From: a virus
Lineage: Duplodnaviria; Heunggongvirae; Uroviricota; Caudoviricetes
Virus record (IMG/VR): IMGVR_UViG_2537562172_000008
Length of the DNA stretch: 37,078 nucleotides
Strand: one strand, 5' to 3'
Position numbers: made by a program. Shown here piece after piece: positions 3,001-30,000 of the stretch (its first letter is position 1; every line of letters begins with the position of its first letter).

Positions 3001-6000
3001 AACCATCGACAGAAGGGTTTTGCATAGCATCGCGAGCACCTATCAGACTAACTCCCTGATGCATAACGTAACCGCCTCCGGTAACCGCGTATTCACGACC
3101 GTCCATATCTATAACTGTTGTGTTTTTGGCGTTTAATTTTGCGCTATCAAAAGCCCATTGCCAGTCCACTACGTCAAGAATATCGCTCACACCCTTGGAG
3201 GTAATAAAGTCTGTTAAGTTTAATTTGTATCCTGGGCGAATTGGATACCACGGTGCTGATGGGATAGATGGCAGATTTCCGCTACCACCGGTGTAGATTT
3301 TATTATTATACCACCACCAGTTATCAACATTAGATAACGCCCCCTCCCGCCATACACCGCCTAACGAGAAATCAAGGCCATATGCGGTGGCTACTTGACT
3401 TAACGATAATTTTGCTCCATCTGAGGCAGCCAACTGAATAAGAACATCAGAAGCAGAACCTGAAGGAGGCAAAACCACTAAAGGATTGCCGATACTATCA
3501 AATGCAACCATCTTATTAGCTCTGGTTTCAGCATCAGGCAAGGATATAATAACTTCTGGAACTCGCAGCGTGCGGATTAAGTTGCTGTTTGCGAGCGTAT
3601 CGACATAATTTTTGGTGGCGGCATCCTGCGGGTTGCAGGGATCGCGCAAATTGCGGATGCAGTTGTTCAGCGCGTCGTACCAGTTCGCAATGCTTGATGG
3701 TTTACGCAGAGCTAAGCGAAAAACGCTATATGCCCGCTGTATAAGCATAGTGAGCTTATCAAAAGCATCCTCATGCACTTCAGCAAAGAACTTACCTTGA
3801 TTGCGCAGATCGGTTTCCTGCGTAACTGGTAGCTCTCGAGATATAGAAATCTGATGACCGCTGGCCAATGCCTTCGACAAAATTACATTGCCACCGTTGT
3901 ATCCACCAGCCCCAGTGACAGTGTAATCAGTATCAAGAGCCAGCACAGCGATATTTTCATCAAGGTCAACCACCTGAACAACCAGGTCGGATTTTTTGAA
4001 AATGCGGAAGGTATACGGAAACGATGTCGTAACGCCATTGCCTGTGTATTCGTTGTGGTCAACTTCGGTTGAGACCGTCATGTTAAATCTCCAGATAGTC
4101 GCAGCACCCGTTGCGCCGCATATCTGGTTATTCTATTACCTGAAAAACCACATATGGATAGAAAGACTGTAAATACGAATAGATATTACCTTTCGGGTAA
4201 TTTACAAAACGTGCTGGATAGCAAACAAATTATTTGATACTGTATAAATATACAGTTATTGCATGGAGAAGATAAGATGCAGCAGTATCACTATCCACTG
4301 GAAGACGGATTTACCGAAAGGATTCACACGCCGGGAGGCGTCAGATCACTGGTGGAGGGATCGCACTTGATGAAATTACTCCGGGATCTCGATAAGGATG
4401 GATTTAATGTCGATGGCCCACTTGCCGAACTGACTGCACTGATTAACTACGTCACCAGCTCACAGATGTCTATGCGGGATCTGCAAACACATCTCGACTA
4501 TTGTGCCGAACAACTACGAAAACAAACCACATAAAGAAAAGGCCGCGAAAGCGGCCTGTGACATGTCACGCTCACGTTATGACAAGCCTATGTACCCTGC
4601 TACACCAGATAATATCAAAATAACTGCAACAGCAAATTCGCCATCGTCAATGATACATTTACGGTTCATAACGCCAAGTGCAACAAGCGCAAACACAACA
4701 AGAATAAAAGCAATCATTTCTCATCCTTATTGCGGAGTGACATCCTGAGGTCGCCACCAGTATGTCTGATTAAACTCTTTCTTCGAACGTTGCTCCATTT
4801 TACGCAAATAGCCTGGTGAAAAATACTCCTGCATCTGGTTAAAGATCATATGATCGAGAGCCGCCTTTAAGTACCAGAGATTCGCACCTGGCATCAAACC
4901 TTTCCCCAGCTTCACCAGATCACCACCAGTCTGCTCACTCTTCCCTTCCACAGCATTTAACGGTATGCCCTGAGCAATCTTCACTACGTCATCAACCAGA
5001 CCAGCTACCGGGCCAAGCATCGACGCCAGCGCGCCGCTTCCGTACCTAGTGTGATCTGACAATAAAAAGTCACCGTAAAGGCCAAGACCACCACCTTTCA
5101 GTAGAGCACCAAGCCAGAATTTTGCGGCATCTTCTCCTGTCATCTCTCGAGGATTACGACCAGACGCAAGGTCGTTAAGTTGCTGCGACAAAGCGCCAAG
5201 AATGGTCGTACTGACAATAAACGTCGCAATATATGCCGCACGACCACCAGCAGACGGCATACCCATAGCGCGTGACCAGTGACGCATAACAACCGAGATA
5301 GGGAACGATTTAAACAGGAAAACACTTCTCGTTAATTCACCTTTCCATGTTCCACGCTGAATACCAGAACCGGTTATCAGCTGCTCACGTGCTCCAGGTG
5401 TAATAACAGCCATATCAACTTCTTCAGTTACGGCACCGAGCAGTTTACGCATTGCCTCAAATTTCACGCGTTCAGGCTCACCAAGATGTTTAACTGCTGA
5501 ATCAGGGATACGCATAATGCTTTCCGGTGTCAGCATCGTATTATTGCCGTTCCCCCAGTCCTCCTGTTGCGCCAGCTTCCATACGCTCCAGTCTGTGTCA
5601 GTAATCCCTTTGCTTTTCAGGATGCGAAAATCAGAATCATCGAGGCTACGAAGGTCTGGTGTCCGTGACACTACTTCTCCCAGGCTTCCCATCATGGTTA
5701 CACCATAGGCGCGCTTGTGCGCATCTGACCATGCTGTAAGCCCACTGGCACGCATTACCGCCGTTGCCGCCCAACGAGACACTGACGGCCCCATATTATC
5801 CATCGCCCAGCGGTTAACGCTGCCAAGTAGAGATTCCATCGCCAGACCAGCGCGGCGCGCCCGCGCAAGTTCTGTACGGTTCGTTGGGTCCATAGCTTCA
5901 AGCTGGTTGCGGAATAACTGGTTCATTGGAAGGTTGGTCACCTTCGCAGACAGATACATGGTCCCAAGATCAGAGAACGATGACAGCAACGCGGAACCGA

Positions 6001-27000: not shown

Positions 27001-30000
27001 TTTCCATCTTTACCCTCGCTTATCCACATAACTTATTGATTACATTGATAACTAAAAAGATCGTCGATTCAGAACTCTTCGATGTTCCAGCCACCACCTG
27101 CTTTCTTTGGCTTAACCGTTACCCCGATGATTCGGAACGGATACTGATCTGCGGCGACTTTGGTTTTCACCCTGGCGTCGTCGGTCCAGAAACCTTTCAC
27201 TTCGTGCAGTTACATCTCGCCGGTGGCGAGCATCACAGCGAAATCGGGCGTATAAAACGTGTTATCAGCTAACCGCAGCTTGATACCCTCGAATCGATAC
27301 CAGGCGATTTCCCCTGCACGTTTACGCTGCTCAAGGTGCTGGCAATACGCAGATTCTGTTTTGTTCATCTGTCCTGTTTTGAGTCGACCAAGAGCCTGTA
27401 TCTGTTTTCTCATGATTTACCTCTGAGGTAATTAAAAACCACATAAGACACGAAATCAATAGATCTAAGAATATTTTGTTACCCATTGGGTAACTACACA
27501 GGCGTAAAAAAATGCGCTGCCGCGCTGGTGCTACCTGATGAGTCCTGCCGCCTTTCCTCGCCTGTATTCCTCCATCAGCCACTGCGCCGGTGTTATTCCC
27601 CCAAGGGTGGCGGCGTTAGGCATGCACCCGAAACTTCGCCCTGGTGGATGGTAAACGTCTCTGCCTGTGTCCGGAGATGTACTCATGGGTTCTGGCTTTG
27701 CCTGTATGCTGATCACCGGATCGGGTATCTGCTGTCCGGAAGCCACCTTTTTCGCCCAATCATCGAGCAGCCTGCGCGCGTGTTTCTCAACCTCAATCTC
27801 GCTAAGCTGGCGCTGATACATTGCACGGCGGGTATCACATACGACCCAGTACATAACCGGATGCCGCCACGGGAATCTTTCGGGACCACCAGGATATAAA
27901 CTTTTTTCCTTGCTGTACCGGTGAAACTCCGCCATCACATCGTCAATGGTGACGCCAAGAACCATCTTGCTGTCTTTGCACCACTTGATGAATTGCCCTG
28001 GCGACGGCCAGAACGGAGACTCACTGGCGCGGGCGTGGCGCATACCAGCAGAAACCTGTTCACGGGTTCGGATCCCCCCTTCGGCAAACGCAGCAATCCA
28101 CTGCTGTTTTGCAGCAACTTCCTGCTCTGGCGTCTTCAGGTTGGTTACCACTGCCGCCGGAAACAGTTGTTTCAGCTGTTTGAAAAGGGCATCAACAAGC
28201 CTCTCTGCTGACATGTTCACCACGTTGTCATTGTTGGTGTACTGATGCTCATAACCTGACATGCGAGAAAGGGCTTCTCCGTCACGGTTTTGTATTGCGG
28301 TAAAAACGTTGTTCACAAGAAATCCTCCCACGCTTCAGGGCTGTTCCAGTGCGGAACGTTGTTATCAGGTAATGTTGATTGCTTCTGTCTGCTAATCTGC
28401 AGCCGCCTTGCCAGCTTCTGCTCCCACTGTGCCTGATGGTATGCCTTACCCTCAGCCATCCAGTAAATTCTGAACTCTGCAAGTTCCTGTGCCGTTGGCA
28501 GACTGTCCAGGTAGATCCCCTGCAATGAGCTTTTCCGAAGAAAGTCATCTGATGGCTGCCATTGTTCATGCATGACAAATTTGCCTAATTGCCCTGGCCC
28601 ACCAGGAGGAACAAAGTTATTCATCACGGCGTTGTTTGCGCCGGGGTCATGATGCACAGAATCCCCGGTTTTTGTCCTGCTCTCCCTCTCTTGGTTAAAT
28701 GACTGGTTATATGACTGGTTCTGGATCCCGTTTTTGGGATCATTCAACATCCCGTTTTTGGGATCATTCAACATCCCGTTTTTGGGTATATTCCCGTTTT
28801 CGGTAACATTACCGTTTTCGGGTTCATTACCCCCTTCCCGGTTGCCTTTAATGTTCCCGTTTTTGGTTATATTAAGAGAGAAAACCCGCACTCTTTTCGT
28901 CGCTCCCTTTCTCTCTCCGGTATCTGAAATAAGCCCCATTTTCATGAGCGATATAAGTCCGGCCTGCACGGTTTTTTTATTCAGGCAAGTGTCTTTAACT
29001 AGGCGTTCTATGCTGGGGTAGCAGAGGTTATATTCATCGGCTCTGTCAGCCATCGAGAGCAGTATGAGCTTTAATGATGAGCTGCCTGGATCTGTCTCCC
29101 AGGCCCAATCTGTTGCATGTCTGCTCATGATTAATCTCCGCTATCAGCTTGAGTGTTGTGGGGAGGAATTAATCATGATCTGCTTAATCTCTGCCCTGAT
29201 GCGACGGTTTGATTCCATGGTGCACTCAACACAGTGTCCGTTGTAAACCCAGCGTTCACTGTCATGTCCGTGCTTACATTGTTTTCCGGTGTAATAGCGT
29301 TTAAGTCCGCGCTTTGCGGCATCAATACGTGTAATGATTTCCATGGTAAGCCCTGTTATTAGTATTGGGATTACGGTCATTTTGTGCTGACACAAAAAAA
29401 AGATCAACCACATTTGGTTTTTTATTACCTTTGAGGTGCGAATAGATATGAAAAGACCGCCGGATGGCGGTCTACAGAGGGTTGTGGCTGGATATCATGA
29501 GTAGAAGAAGTATGCCAGTTCTGCTTTTGAGCGCAGCCATTGTCTTGTTTTACAGGCTTTAAAAAGCCCATTCATCAATACCTTACCTGGCATTTTGCGC
29601 TTACCTGTTAAGTGAGTCTGGATATAGTGACTCGTCGTTCCGGCTTCCTGTGCGAAGGCTTCACGCTCATCCGGAGTAAGTGCAAGCCAGTGCTTTTTGA
29701 AATCGAAATGTCCGTTATCGCTCATAGCTATTGCCTGATATTTATTTCAGATAATAAATATTCACCCATAAGGTAACAAAAATCAAGGATAGTTACCTAT
29801 GGGGTGCATTTACCTGTTGGGTAATATTGCTTTAAATTGAATCATCTACTGATTCATATATGAGGCGATTTTCCAGAAAATGAAAAGTATCCAGGACGTC
29901 CGCAGGCAAAATCTCAACGACTTGATCGACCGTGAATTCAATGGTGTTCAGACGCGGATGGCAGAAAAACTTGGAACTCAGGCAAATCTGGTAAACCGCT

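What the first reader, a model, noticed from the sequence alone, without database searches (positions are those of the whole stretch)
4186..27493. Ectopic perfect copies of the repressor operator at four intergenic positions outside the immunity region
Seen: perfect TTACC-N5-GGTAA at 4186-4200 (between tailspike and the SOS gene), 20784-20798 (next to a TTGACA hexamer upstream of the tRNA moron), and 27417-27431 plus 27479-27493 (bracketing a promoter-like TTGATT-17-TTTAAT between the P-like gene and the interrupted nuclease gene). A 10-position fixed motif is expected well under once by chance in 37 kb (about 37,000 / 4^10), yet there are seven perfect copies, all intergenic. Inference: the repressor regulon extends to moron and accessory promoters, possibly silencing the SOS gene, the tRNA unit and the nin-like accessory block in the lysogen. 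The pentamers GGTAA/TTACC also recur in inverted arrangement in the terS-proximal repeats (23934-23962) and in one origin iteron (about 28801-28814), which may or may not be related.
Basis: partly seen in the sequence, partly recalled or inferred. Interest (0 to 1): 0.6.

Follow-up and report, generated by a model that had tools for sequence, protein, structure and literature searches.

The report
Repressor operators at every lytic promoter
The repeated 15-base palindrome is real and is most likely the binding site of this phiV10/epsilon15-like prophage's repressor, placed at the start of each lytic transcription unit; the same sites are already annotated in phage epsilon15, so this is a solid but largely known feature.

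Summary
Observation confirmed. All lie in intergenic DNA.

The window is a phiV10/epsilon15-like (Uetakevirus) prophage.

The "ectopic" sites are not chance copies. The same motif is the top spaced palindrome in all 16 related genomes examined, from about ten host genera, and it sits in the same gene intervals. The public epsilon15 record already annotates these positions as repressor-binding sites.

In the window, O_L and the 27417/27479 pair are the same module: terminator, distal operator, -35, 17 bp, a -10 abutting the proximal operator, with the two operators 62 bp apart. The terS sites abut an extended -10 and the ribosome-binding site. The sites at 20784 and 4186 are single operators in divergent promoter regions.

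Best reading: tetrameric Rep shuts each lytic transcription unit directly. Binding is inferred, not shown. Novelty is low.

The parts
29880..30464 (+). rep: SPC32H-type repressor, with an N-terminal HTH domain and a middle and C-terminal tetramerization/Ant-binding region
   Evidence: E=4e-42 to PDB 5D50_A 'Repressor' over residues 1-190. 100% identical to the phiV10 repressor. The NLVNRW recognition-helix segment is invariant between clades. No Peptidase_S24 domain is listed for any homolog.
29762..29824 (.). O_R cluster of three sites: 29762-29776 (1 mismatch), 29793-29807 (2 mismatches) and 29810-29824 (perfect), lying between cro-like and rep
   Evidence: The 29762 site overlaps the P_R -35 and spacer. 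Tripartite arrangements are conserved in all clades.
29751..29779 (-). P_R-like promoter TTGTTA-17-TATTAT, driving the cro-like gene (29725-29495) and the replication genes
   Evidence: Consensus scan. This is a prediction only.
30522..30598 (.). O_L pair: distal operator 30522-30536 and proximal operator 30584-30598, 62 bp start to start
   Evidence: A 61-63 bp pair was found in 14 of the 16 genomes; the Erwinia locus has one perfect O_L site and Serratia has 75 bp.
30556..30584 (+). P_L: TTGACA-17-AATCAT. The last T of the -10 is the first T of the proximal operator. It follows the rep terminator at 30485-30504.
27417..27493 (.). Post-replication ('middle'/nin) operator pair: distal 27479-27493 and proximal 27417-27431, 62 bp apart
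   Evidence: The module aligns without gaps in the four clade representatives. A 61-62 bp pair is present in 14 of 16 genomes.
27431..27459 (-). P_mid: TTGATT(27459-27454)-17-TTTAAT(27436-27431). The -10 abuts the proximal operator, which also covers the SD GAGG (27423-27420) of the DUF1064 gene (ATG at 27413).
   Evidence: Sequence read. Geometry found in all 13 genomes scanned. The downstream genes are DUF1064, Ead/Ea22, DUF551, NinX and a p55-type regulator.
23926..23958 (.). terS operators: perfect 23944-23958 and one-mismatch 23926-23940, 18 bp apart. The second overlaps the SD and start region of terS (ATG at 23923).
   Evidence: Syntenic with the epsilon15 'repressor' protein_bind feature at 12-27.
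23958..23995 (-). Terminator of the nin-like operon (23995-23978), followed by an extended -10-like TGgTACTAT (23966-23958) whose last T starts the operator
   Evidence: The TGnT(A/G)CTAT element is conserved in six genomes. This is a prediction only.
20784..20798 (.). Single operator in the divergent region between gp3 (late head operon, ATG at 20693, minus strand) and the moron slot (tRNA-Arg, plus strand)
   Evidence: Present about 90-105 bp upstream of gp3 in all seven phage genomes. Corresponds to the epsilon15 feature at 2931-2947.
20762..20767 (+). TTGACA -35-like hexamer 16 nt from the operator, pointing toward tRNA-Arg(UCU) at 21121-21197 and the terminator-like hairpin at 21361-21376
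   Evidence: TTGAC[AC] lies at exactly 16 nt in 11 of 11 genomes although the spacer sequences differ. The -10 would be the weak TTACCT, so the promoter is not established.
4186..4200 (.). Single operator in the divergent region between tailspike (ATG at 4081, minus strand) and ant (plus strand)
   Evidence: Perfect in 6 of 7 phage genomes and one mismatch in phiV10. Corresponds to the epsilon15 feature at 19895-19911.
4215..4534 (+). P_ant (TGGATA 4215-4220, 17 bp spacer, TACTGT 4238-4243), overlapped by a perfect LexA box (4240-4255), and the ant antirepressor gene (4277-4534)
   Evidence: LexA box with no mismatches. Sequence. E=6e-47 to PDB 5D50_E 'Anti-repressor protein'. The promoter hexamers are conserved across clades.
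4130..4153 (-). Conserved box ATGTGGTT-N5-GGTAATAGAAT upstream of tailspike; a candidate late-promoter or activator element containing an operator half-site
20722..20739 (-). The same conserved box, ATGTGGTT-N5-GGTAA, upstream of gp3. Its GGTAA half-site lies where a second operator placed 62 bp from the 20784 site would end.
   Evidence: The spacing was counted by hand from the sequence.

Best explanation
The TTACC-N5-GGTAA palindrome (extended form aTTACC-nnWnn-GGTAAt) is the operator of the phage's Rep repressor. Rep is an SPC32H-type, non-cleavable tetrameric repressor that is inactivated by the LexA-controlled antirepressor Ant.

This phage family does not rely only on O_L/O_R and a downstream cascade. 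It places operators at the start of each lytic transcription unit:
- P_R, with three sites.
- P_L, with a pair.
- The post-replication 'middle' promoter that drives the nin-like block, with a pair.
- The terS leader, with two adjacent sites.
- Two divergent control regions, gp3/moron slot and tailspike/ant, with one site each.

At P_L and P_mid one operator covers the -10/+1 region and a second sits 62 bp upstream, about six helical turns away and so on the same face of the DNA. This suits a tetramer with two DNA-binding pairs clamping the promoter.

Shown here: the sites, their statistics, their promoter geometry and their conservation. Inferred: that Rep is the bound protein, that one tetramer bridges each pair, and that occupancy silences these units in the lysogen.
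For: 1. Motif statistics: 8 perfect copies against 0.03 expected, and it is the top spaced palindrome de novo.
2. Copies flank rep on both sides and overlap the predicted P_R and P_L.
3. P_L and P_mid share one geometry: terminator, distal operator, about 19 bp, TTGAnn, 17 bp, then a -10 whose last T starts the proximal operator. This geometry was found at both promoters in all 13 genomes scanned.
4. The same motif is the top palindrome in all 16 related genomes or prophages, with 5-11 perfect copies each, in the same gene intervals.
5. Rep's HTH domain is better conserved than the rest of the protein (54-56% against 36-37% between clades). The predicted recognition helix N-L/V-V/I-N/S-R-W is retained in all 86 homologs, matching the invariant half-site.
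6. Distant relatives with a different helix lack the motif.
7. The epsilon15 record annotates the syntenic positions as 'repressor' protein-binding sites.
8. Published summaries say SPC32H Rep binds palindromic DNA as a tetramer whose DNA-binding pairs come from different dimers, and that it has a looping-type tetramerization domain (PMC9638917; PMC9986798).
Against: - No binding or transcript data could be consulted. The three primary papers are not in the library.
- A 2023 paper says Rep's repression mechanism 'has not been extensively characterized'.
- The single sites at 4186 and 20784 do not overlap a convincing sigma-70 promoter. The strict scan found none at 20600-21500 or 27300-27650.
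- One operator sequence serving repressors that are only 42% identical is unusual, and leaves room for a more conserved protein being the ligand. The cro-like protein is 59-100% identical across these genomes.
- No specificity variant exists, so a repressor/operator covariation test could not be run.
- The 62 bp spacing is replaced by 18 bp or 75 bp arrangements in the two most divergent genomes.
Confidence: 0.8

Rival explanations
1. The sites outside the immunity region are used mainly by another phage DNA-binding protein that shares or overlaps the motif. Candidates are the Cro-like protein (29495-29725) during lytic growth, or the p55-type regulator encoded just upstream of terS acting as a middle/late activator. 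Under this reading Rep matters only at O_L and O_R.
For: The cro-like and p55 proteins are much better conserved between clades than Rep: 59-84% and 71-81% identity against 42-45%. That would fit an invariant site. The gp3 and tailspike sites lie upstream of a separate conserved late box rather than on a recognisable sigma-70 promoter.
Against: The outside sites match the immunity-region sites at all ten half-site positions. The P_mid module copies the P_L module position for position, which is the geometry of repression (-10/+1 occlusion), not activation. Rep's recognition helix is conserved despite divergence elsewhere in the protein. Pfam finds no domain in the cro-like or p55 proteins, so there is no positive evidence for either.
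Confidence: 0.1
2. The dispersed single sites are architectural rather than local switches. They would serve as anchor points that let Rep tetramers bridge distant parts of the prophage and compact it, or as transcription roadblocks in the manner of mycobacteriophage stoperators. The pair in the terS leader just after a terminator is the clearest roadblock candidate.
For: Rep is a tetramer with a looping-type tetramerization domain. Single operators leave one DNA-binding pair free. The terS sites sit downstream of a terminator and over the ribosome-binding region.
Against: The sites are palindromic and sit at intergenic promoter regions, not inside operons in one orientation. Each is at a fixed short distance from promoter-like hexamers conserved across clades. 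With only 8-11 sites per genome there are few potential long-range bridges.
Confidence: 0.07
3. The copies are chance occurrences or a by-product of sequence composition or codon usage.
For: The half-site pentamers are somewhat common (TTACC 70 and GGTAA 46 on the plus strand). Two-mismatch matches are in general excess in coding DNA.
Against: 0.03 copies are expected and no shuffle reached 8. From the half-site counts alone only 0.09 co-occurrences at N5 are expected. All copies are intergenic, and they recur at the same syntenic positions in 16 genomes.
Confidence: 0.01

Closest known systems
Predicted repressor-binding sites of Salmonella phage epsilon15 (NC_004775 annotation; Kropinski et al. 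2007, Virology 369:234, not readable here)
   Same: The same 17-bp palindrome ATTACC-N5-GGTAAT, annotated as 'protein_bind: repressor, lysogeny' upstream of terS, upstream of gp3, between gp19 (the Ant homolog) and the tail fibre, after the replication gene, and three times at O_L. These are syntenic with the window's sites at 23944, 20784, 4186, 27479 and O_L.
   Different: The epsilon15 record omits four perfect copies found: the promoter-proximal site of the post-replication pair (35969), the two O_R sites, and one upstream of the lysis cassette. The phiV10-type records carry no operator annotation at all. As far as I can tell these are predictions, not measured binding.
Rep-Ant lysis-lysogeny switch of Salmonella phage SPC32H (Kim & Ryu 2013, J Virol; Kim et al. 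2016, PNAS; PDB 5D50 and 5D4Z)
   Same: The window encodes homologs of both proteins. A LexA box overlaps the ant promoter. SPC32H itself carries 10 perfect copies of the motif in the same intervals.
   Different: The window's Rep is only about 42% identical to SPC32H Rep. Whether those papers mapped operators outside the immunity region could not be checked.
Phage P1 C1 repressor with many operators scattered over the genome (own knowledge)
   Same: One immunity repressor directly controls many separate transcription units through dispersed operators, rather than through a single control region.
   Different: P1 operators are asymmetric 17-mers bound by a monomer, and there are more of them. 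The proteins are unrelated, and P1 uses Coi/Ant and Lxc accessory factors.
Mycobacteriophage L5 gp71 'stoperators' (own knowledge: Brown et al. 1997; Mavrich & Hatfull 2019)
   Same: Dozens of repressor sites spread through the genome keep lytic genes silent in the lysogen.
   Different: Stoperators are asymmetric, orientation-dependent, lie within transcribed regions and block elongation. Their sequence co-diverges with the repressor among Cluster A phages. Here the sites are palindromic, lie at promoters, and are invariant.
Lambda CI cooperative binding and O_L-O_R looping
   Same: A multimeric repressor uses paired or multiple operators and DNA bending or looping for tight repression (comparison drawn in PMC9638917).
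   Different: Lambda confines its operators to the immunity region and controls late genes indirectly through N and Q antitermination. Lambda CI is RecA-cleavable. Here a short 62 bp pair brackets a single promoter.

Membership tests
SPC32H/epsilon15-type Rep-Ant immunity system (Uetakevirus) | Repressor homologous to SPC32H Rep (N-terminal HTH plus middle and C-terminal oligomerization/Ant-binding domains) | tested here: met
   E=4e-42 to 5D50_A over residues 1-190, and E=4e-20 to the C-terminal fragment 5D4Z.
SPC32H/epsilon15-type Rep-Ant immunity system (Uetakevirus) | Small antirepressor Ant homologous to SPC32H Ant | tested here: met
   E=6e-47 to 5D50_E over its full length.
SPC32H/epsilon15-type Rep-Ant immunity system (Uetakevirus) | LexA box overlapping the ant promoter | tested here: met
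   Perfect CTGTATAAATATACAG at 4240-4255, overlapping the conserved TACTGT -10 and 22 nt before the ant ATG.
SPC32H/epsilon15-type Rep-Ant immunity system (Uetakevirus) | Repressor lacks a RecA-stimulated self-cleavage (S24 peptidase) domain | tested here: met
   The precomputed Pfam domains of the 86 homologs list only HTH-type families and no Peptidase_S24.
Repressor operator (cis site of the immunity repressor) | Palindromic sites flanking the repressor gene and overlapping the divergent early promoters | tested here: met
   Sites at 29762-29824 overlap P_R, and sites at 30522-30598 bracket P_L.
Repressor operator (cis site of the immunity repressor) | The copies outside the immunity region share the operator sequence and the promoter-occluding position | tested here: met
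   Met for P_mid and terS, where the -10 abuts the operator. For 4186 and 20784 the site is conserved, but the promoter overlap is not clear.
Repressor operator (cis site of the immunity repressor) | Physical occupancy by Rep and Rep-dependent repression | not testable with these tools
   Needs EMSA or footprinting, ChIP and transcript mapping.
Repressor operator (cis site of the immunity repressor) | Operator sequence co-varies with the repressor's recognition helix | tested here: inconclusive
   Both the helix and the half-site are conserved in all 16 genomes, so no variant exists to test. Five distant relatives matching only the N-terminal domain have other helices and lack the motif, but they are unrelated elements.
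Stoperators (mycobacteriophage L5 type) | Asymmetric, orientation-biased sites inside transcription units that block elongation | tested here: not met
   The sites are symmetric palindromes (logo) located in intergenic promoter regions. Only the terS-leader pair could also act as a roadblock.

The most novel reading that the evidence does not exclude
Operators are spread over six control regions, and at P_L and P_mid they are fused to the promoter -10. Changing immunity specificity would therefore need about ten coordinated changes. This may have frozen one operator specificity across the whole family: the half-site is invariant in 16 genomes from about ten enterobacterial host genera, while Rep itself has diverged to 42% identity.

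If so, phages of Escherichia, Salmonella, Klebsiella, Enterobacter, Citrobacter and Serratia would be cross-immune at the level of DNA recognition. Diversification would have shifted to the Rep-Ant interface. The conserved 62 bp operator pair would be a 'one tetramer per promoter' clamp, which would supply the missing DNA-side explanation for the unusual trans-dimer Rep tetramer.
Probability: 0.3. Interest if true: 0.5.

Novelty: already known. Interest (0 to 1): 0.3.

Why it matters
For this window the result is mainly a clean annotation. It identifies the immunity system as Rep/Ant/LexA, names the operator, and shows that each lytic transcription unit carries its own operator. That explains how a phage without a lambda-style N/Q cascade can keep late genes silent.

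It also bears on engineering, because phiV10-type phages are used as reporter phages. Inserts placed behind these promoters would be Rep-controlled.

Two points go beyond the existing epsilon15 annotation and are directly testable:
- The 62 bp promoter-bracketing operator pair, conserved in 14 of the 16 genomes and matched to a tetrameric repressor.
- The family-wide invariance of the operator despite strong repressor divergence.

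Tried and rejected
1. I tried to read Kropinski 2007 (epsilon15 genome), Kim & Ryu 2013 and Kim et al. 2016 (SPC32H Rep/Ant). None is held. Searches for the consensus string and for 'operator' with phiV10, SPC32H or Uetakevirus gave only secondary mentions.
2. Covariation test. I searched 86 Rep homologs for recognition-helix variants and fetched the three most divergent contexts. 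All keep the same motif, so the test cannot discriminate.
3. The strict sigma-70 scan found nothing at 20600-21500 or 27300-27650. P_mid escapes the scan because its -10 (TTTAAT) lacks A at position 2. I therefore relied on manual and comparative geometry.
4. Origin iterons as related elements: rejected, because they are a different repeat.
5. Two-mismatch sites as extra operators: rejected except for 29793, because they are in general excess in coding DNA.
6. ATGTGGTT as a strongly enriched motif: only modest support (5 copies against 1.45 expected, 2 of 100 shuffles reach 5). Two of the five copies are probably coding coincidences.
7. The Rfam scan found only the tRNA.
8. The 'half-sites invariant 20/20' footprint is partly circular, because the sites were chosen as perfect matches. 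The non-trivial part is that perfect sites fall in the same ungapped register in every clade.
9. I did not count the motif in a host chromosome. The collection pattern scan needs at least 14 specified bases and this motif has 10.

Full report
**What is in the sequence.** A search for TTACC-N5-GGTAA finds eight perfect copies: 4186, 20784, 23944, 27417, 27479, 29810, 30522 and 30584. Dinucleotide-preserving shuffles give 0.03 copies, and none of 100 shuffles reached eight. Allowing one mismatch adds only 23926 and 29762, each beside a perfect copy. An unbiased count of every 5-Nx-5 palindrome ranks this motif first by a wide margin. The total is eight rather than seven, because the terS-proximal repeat at 23944-23958 is itself a perfect copy.

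**What the element is.** The window is about 97% identical to phiV10 and phiv142-3, so it is an epsilon15-like temperate podophage of the genus Uetakevirus. The gene at 29880-30464 is a homolog of the SPC32H repressor Rep (PDB 5D50_A, E=4e-42). A perfect LexA box, CTGTATAAATATACAG at 4240-4255, overlaps its conserved promoter TGGATA-17-TACTGT. No homolog of Rep carries an S24 self-cleavage domain. This is the Rep/Ant/LexA switch described for SPC32H. The papers are cited from reference lists, and their content is from my own knowledge because they could not be opened.

**Prior knowledge.** The public epsilon15 record annotates seven 'protein_bind: repressor, lysogeny' features. Their sequences are ATTACC-N5-GGTAAT. 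Four of them lie outside the immunity region: upstream of terS, upstream of gp3, between gp19 (the Ant homolog) and the tail fibre, and after the replication gene. Anchor-protein mapping shows these are the same intervals as the window's 23944, 20784, 4186 and 27479 sites. The central claim of the finding is therefore already in the annotation of the epsilon15 reference genome, although as far as I could establish only as a prediction. A 2023 paper states that Rep's repression mechanism 'has not been extensively characterized'. The phiV10-type records carry no such features.

**Conservation.** The motif is the top spaced palindrome in every relative examined, with these counts of perfect copies:
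- phiV10 8, phiv142-3 10, epsilon15 11, SPC32H 10, Klebsiella BUCT711 9, Enterobacter Tyrion 9.
- Six prophages from Superficieibacter, Erwinia, Klebsiella, Citrobacter (two) and Scandinavium, with 5-9 copies within 10 kb of rep.
- Three contexts of the most divergent full-length Rep homologs, including Serratia, with 6-7 copies.

The sites always fall in the same intervals: O_R, O_L, after the replication genes, upstream of terS, upstream of gp3, and between ant and the tailspike. A logo from 108 perfect sites (85 unique) gives aTTACC-(t)nWn(a)-GGTAAt, with a strongly A/T central base.

**Promoter geometry.** P_L is TTGACA(30556)-17-AATCAT(30584). The last T of the -10 is the first T of the proximal operator. 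The distal operator lies about 19 bp upstream of the -35, just after the rep terminator.

The 27417/27479 pair is the same module on the minus strand. It runs: terminator of the replication operon, distal operator, TTGATT(27459-27454), 17 bp, TTTAAT(27436-27431) abutting the proximal operator. That operator also covers the SD of the first downstream gene.

Both modules have this geometry in all 13 genomes scanned. The operator spacing is 61-63 bp in 14 of the 16 genomes, for each module. The exceptions are:
- At O_L, one perfect site only in Erwinia and a 75 bp spacing in Serratia.
- At the post-replication pair, 18 bp spacing in Serratia and in the P0078 context.

In ungapped alignments of clade representatives the N5 spacers and most flanking columns vary, while the half-sites and the -35 stay fixed. 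There is a caveat: the half-sites were selected as perfect matches, so only their shared register is independent evidence.

P_mid drives a nin-like block: DUF1064, Ead/Ea22, DUF551, NinX and a p55-type regulator. That block ends at a terminator (23995-23978). An extended -10-like TGgTACTAT follows immediately, again abutting an operator (23958-23944). A second, one-mismatch operator lies over the terS ribosome-binding region. O_R holds three sites of graded quality, one of them over the P_R -35 and spacer.

**The two single sites.** Each sits in a divergent control region.

At 20784, the sequence toward gp3 is conserved in all clades, whereas the sequence toward the tRNA/moron slot is not. That ties the site to the core late region rather than to the moron cargo. 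A Rep-occluded promoter feeding the slot is therefore plausible. In this window the slot holds tRNA-Arg(UCU) on the plus strand followed by a terminator-like hairpin. Its -10 would be weak (TTACCT).

At 4186, the operator ends 14 bp upstream of the ant -35 and about 30 bp upstream, in the late direction, of a conserved box ATATGTGGTT-N5-GGTAATAGAAT. The same box precedes gp3, and its ATGTGGTT core lies in the P_mid spacer. I cannot say from sequence alone which of the divergent promoters Rep affects at these two sites.

**Is Rep the ligand?** Direct evidence is lacking here. The indirect evidence is as follows:
- The sites flank rep and occlude P_L and P_R.
- The outside sites reproduce the P_L module.
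- Rep's HTH domain is more conserved than the rest of the protein (54-56% against 36-37% identity), and the segment NLVNRW is invariant among clades.
- That segment varies only as N-L/V-V/I-N/S-R-W among 86 homologs.
- By analogy with the 434 repressor this segment is the recognition helix. That step is my own inference.
- Relatives that match only the N-terminal domain and have other helices lack the motif. This is weak evidence because they are unrelated elements.

Published summaries describe SPC32H Rep as a tetramer that binds palindromic sites with DNA-binding pairs drawn from different dimers, and as having a looping-type tetramerization domain. That fits operator pairs about six helical turns apart.

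**Comparison and verdict.** Functionally this resembles the dispersed-operator regulons of P1 C1 and of mycobacteriophage L5 (own knowledge). It is not a stoperator system, because the sites are palindromic and lie at promoters.

It is a member of the SPC32H/epsilon15 Rep-Ant family on every feature I could test. The finding is real and its core inference is reasonable, but it is already annotated in epsilon15, and the mechanism class is familiar. What this analysis adds is:
- The complete site list for this phage.
- The shared promoter-clamp module with 62 bp spacing.
- Placement of operators at every lytic unit.
- Invariance of the half-site across 16 genomes, even though Rep is the most diverged of the core proteins compared: 42% identity to epsilon15, against 76-96% for the Cro-like protein, Ant, portal, integrase and terL.

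That invariance suggests, but does not prove, that dispersing the operators has locked the family into one immunity specificity.

Noticed in passing
window 27413-27069 (- strand): The DUF1064 gene directly downstream of P_mid has an in-frame TAA at 27212-27210 (codon 68). The frame otherwise runs on to a TGA at 27071-27069, giving 114 codons as in phiV10p45. It is a nonsense-interrupted gene, not an insertion as 'interrupted nuclease gene' might suggest.
   Followed up: partly
window 4146-4153, 20732-20739, 27437-27444 (- strand): A conserved box cATATGTGGTT followed 5 nt later by an operator half-site: GGTAATA(A/G) upstream of tailspike and gp3, and TTACC in the P_mid spacer. It is conserved in all clades. 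ATGTGGTT occurs 5 times, all on the late-gene strand, against 1.45 expected. It is a candidate late-promoter or activator element.
   Followed up: partly
window 20722-20798: Upstream of gp3, the GGTAA half-site of the conserved box lies where a second operator placed 62 bp from the perfect one would end (pseudo-operator TGGTT-N5-GGTAA). At tailspike the corresponding offset is 50 bp. Counted by hand. The significance is unknown.
   Followed up: no
L001 20497-20511; L003 5138-5152 and 6153-6167; L005 17377-17391; L006 21393-21407: Relatives carry additional operator sites downstream of ant. Those in phiV10, phiv142-3, BUCT711 and Tyrion abut promoter-like hexamers (for example TTGCAA-17-TATATT|TACC) next to the Bro-N antirepressor and small accessory genes. 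The window lacks that insert, with only about 190 bp between ant and the virion gene.
   Followed up: partly
window 29880-30464 compared with L002 and L004: Rep is the most diverged of the anchor proteins compared between the window and epsilon15 (42% identity), against 76-96% for Cro-like (76), portal (81), Ant (83), integrase (87) and terL (96). The less conserved middle and C-terminal part is 36-37% identical, even though its binding partner Ant is well conserved.
   Followed up: partly
window 28725-28877: Six iterons of TCCCGTTTTTGGGA type, spaced 24, 24, 18, 18 and 45 bp, lie inside the DnaT-like initiator gene. This is presumably the replication origin, in the manner of ori inside lambda gene O.
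   Followed up: no
window 1-1641 (- strand): Three ORFs downstream of the tailspike (8-247, 291-1121 and 1093-1641, the last with a hydrophobic N-terminus) have no tblastn match in any of the six related phage genomes. They occupy the position where relatives carry O-antigen-modifying genes, so they may be a different serotype-conversion cassette.
   Followed up: no
L019 16783-16797; L020 15724-15738: A conserved one-mismatch site (gagagtATACC-N5-GGTAAtacc) lies just beyond the integrase gene, near the prophage end. In L019 this is next to the host guaA/guaB-type genes. The corresponding region is outside the window.
   Followed up: no
window 29425-29439: A two-mismatch site (TTACCTTTGAGGTGC) lies in the short intergenic gap between the cro-like gene and the next ORF (29413-29144), close to where phiV10 annotates a terminator. 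It could be a weak extra operator or chance.
   Followed up: no
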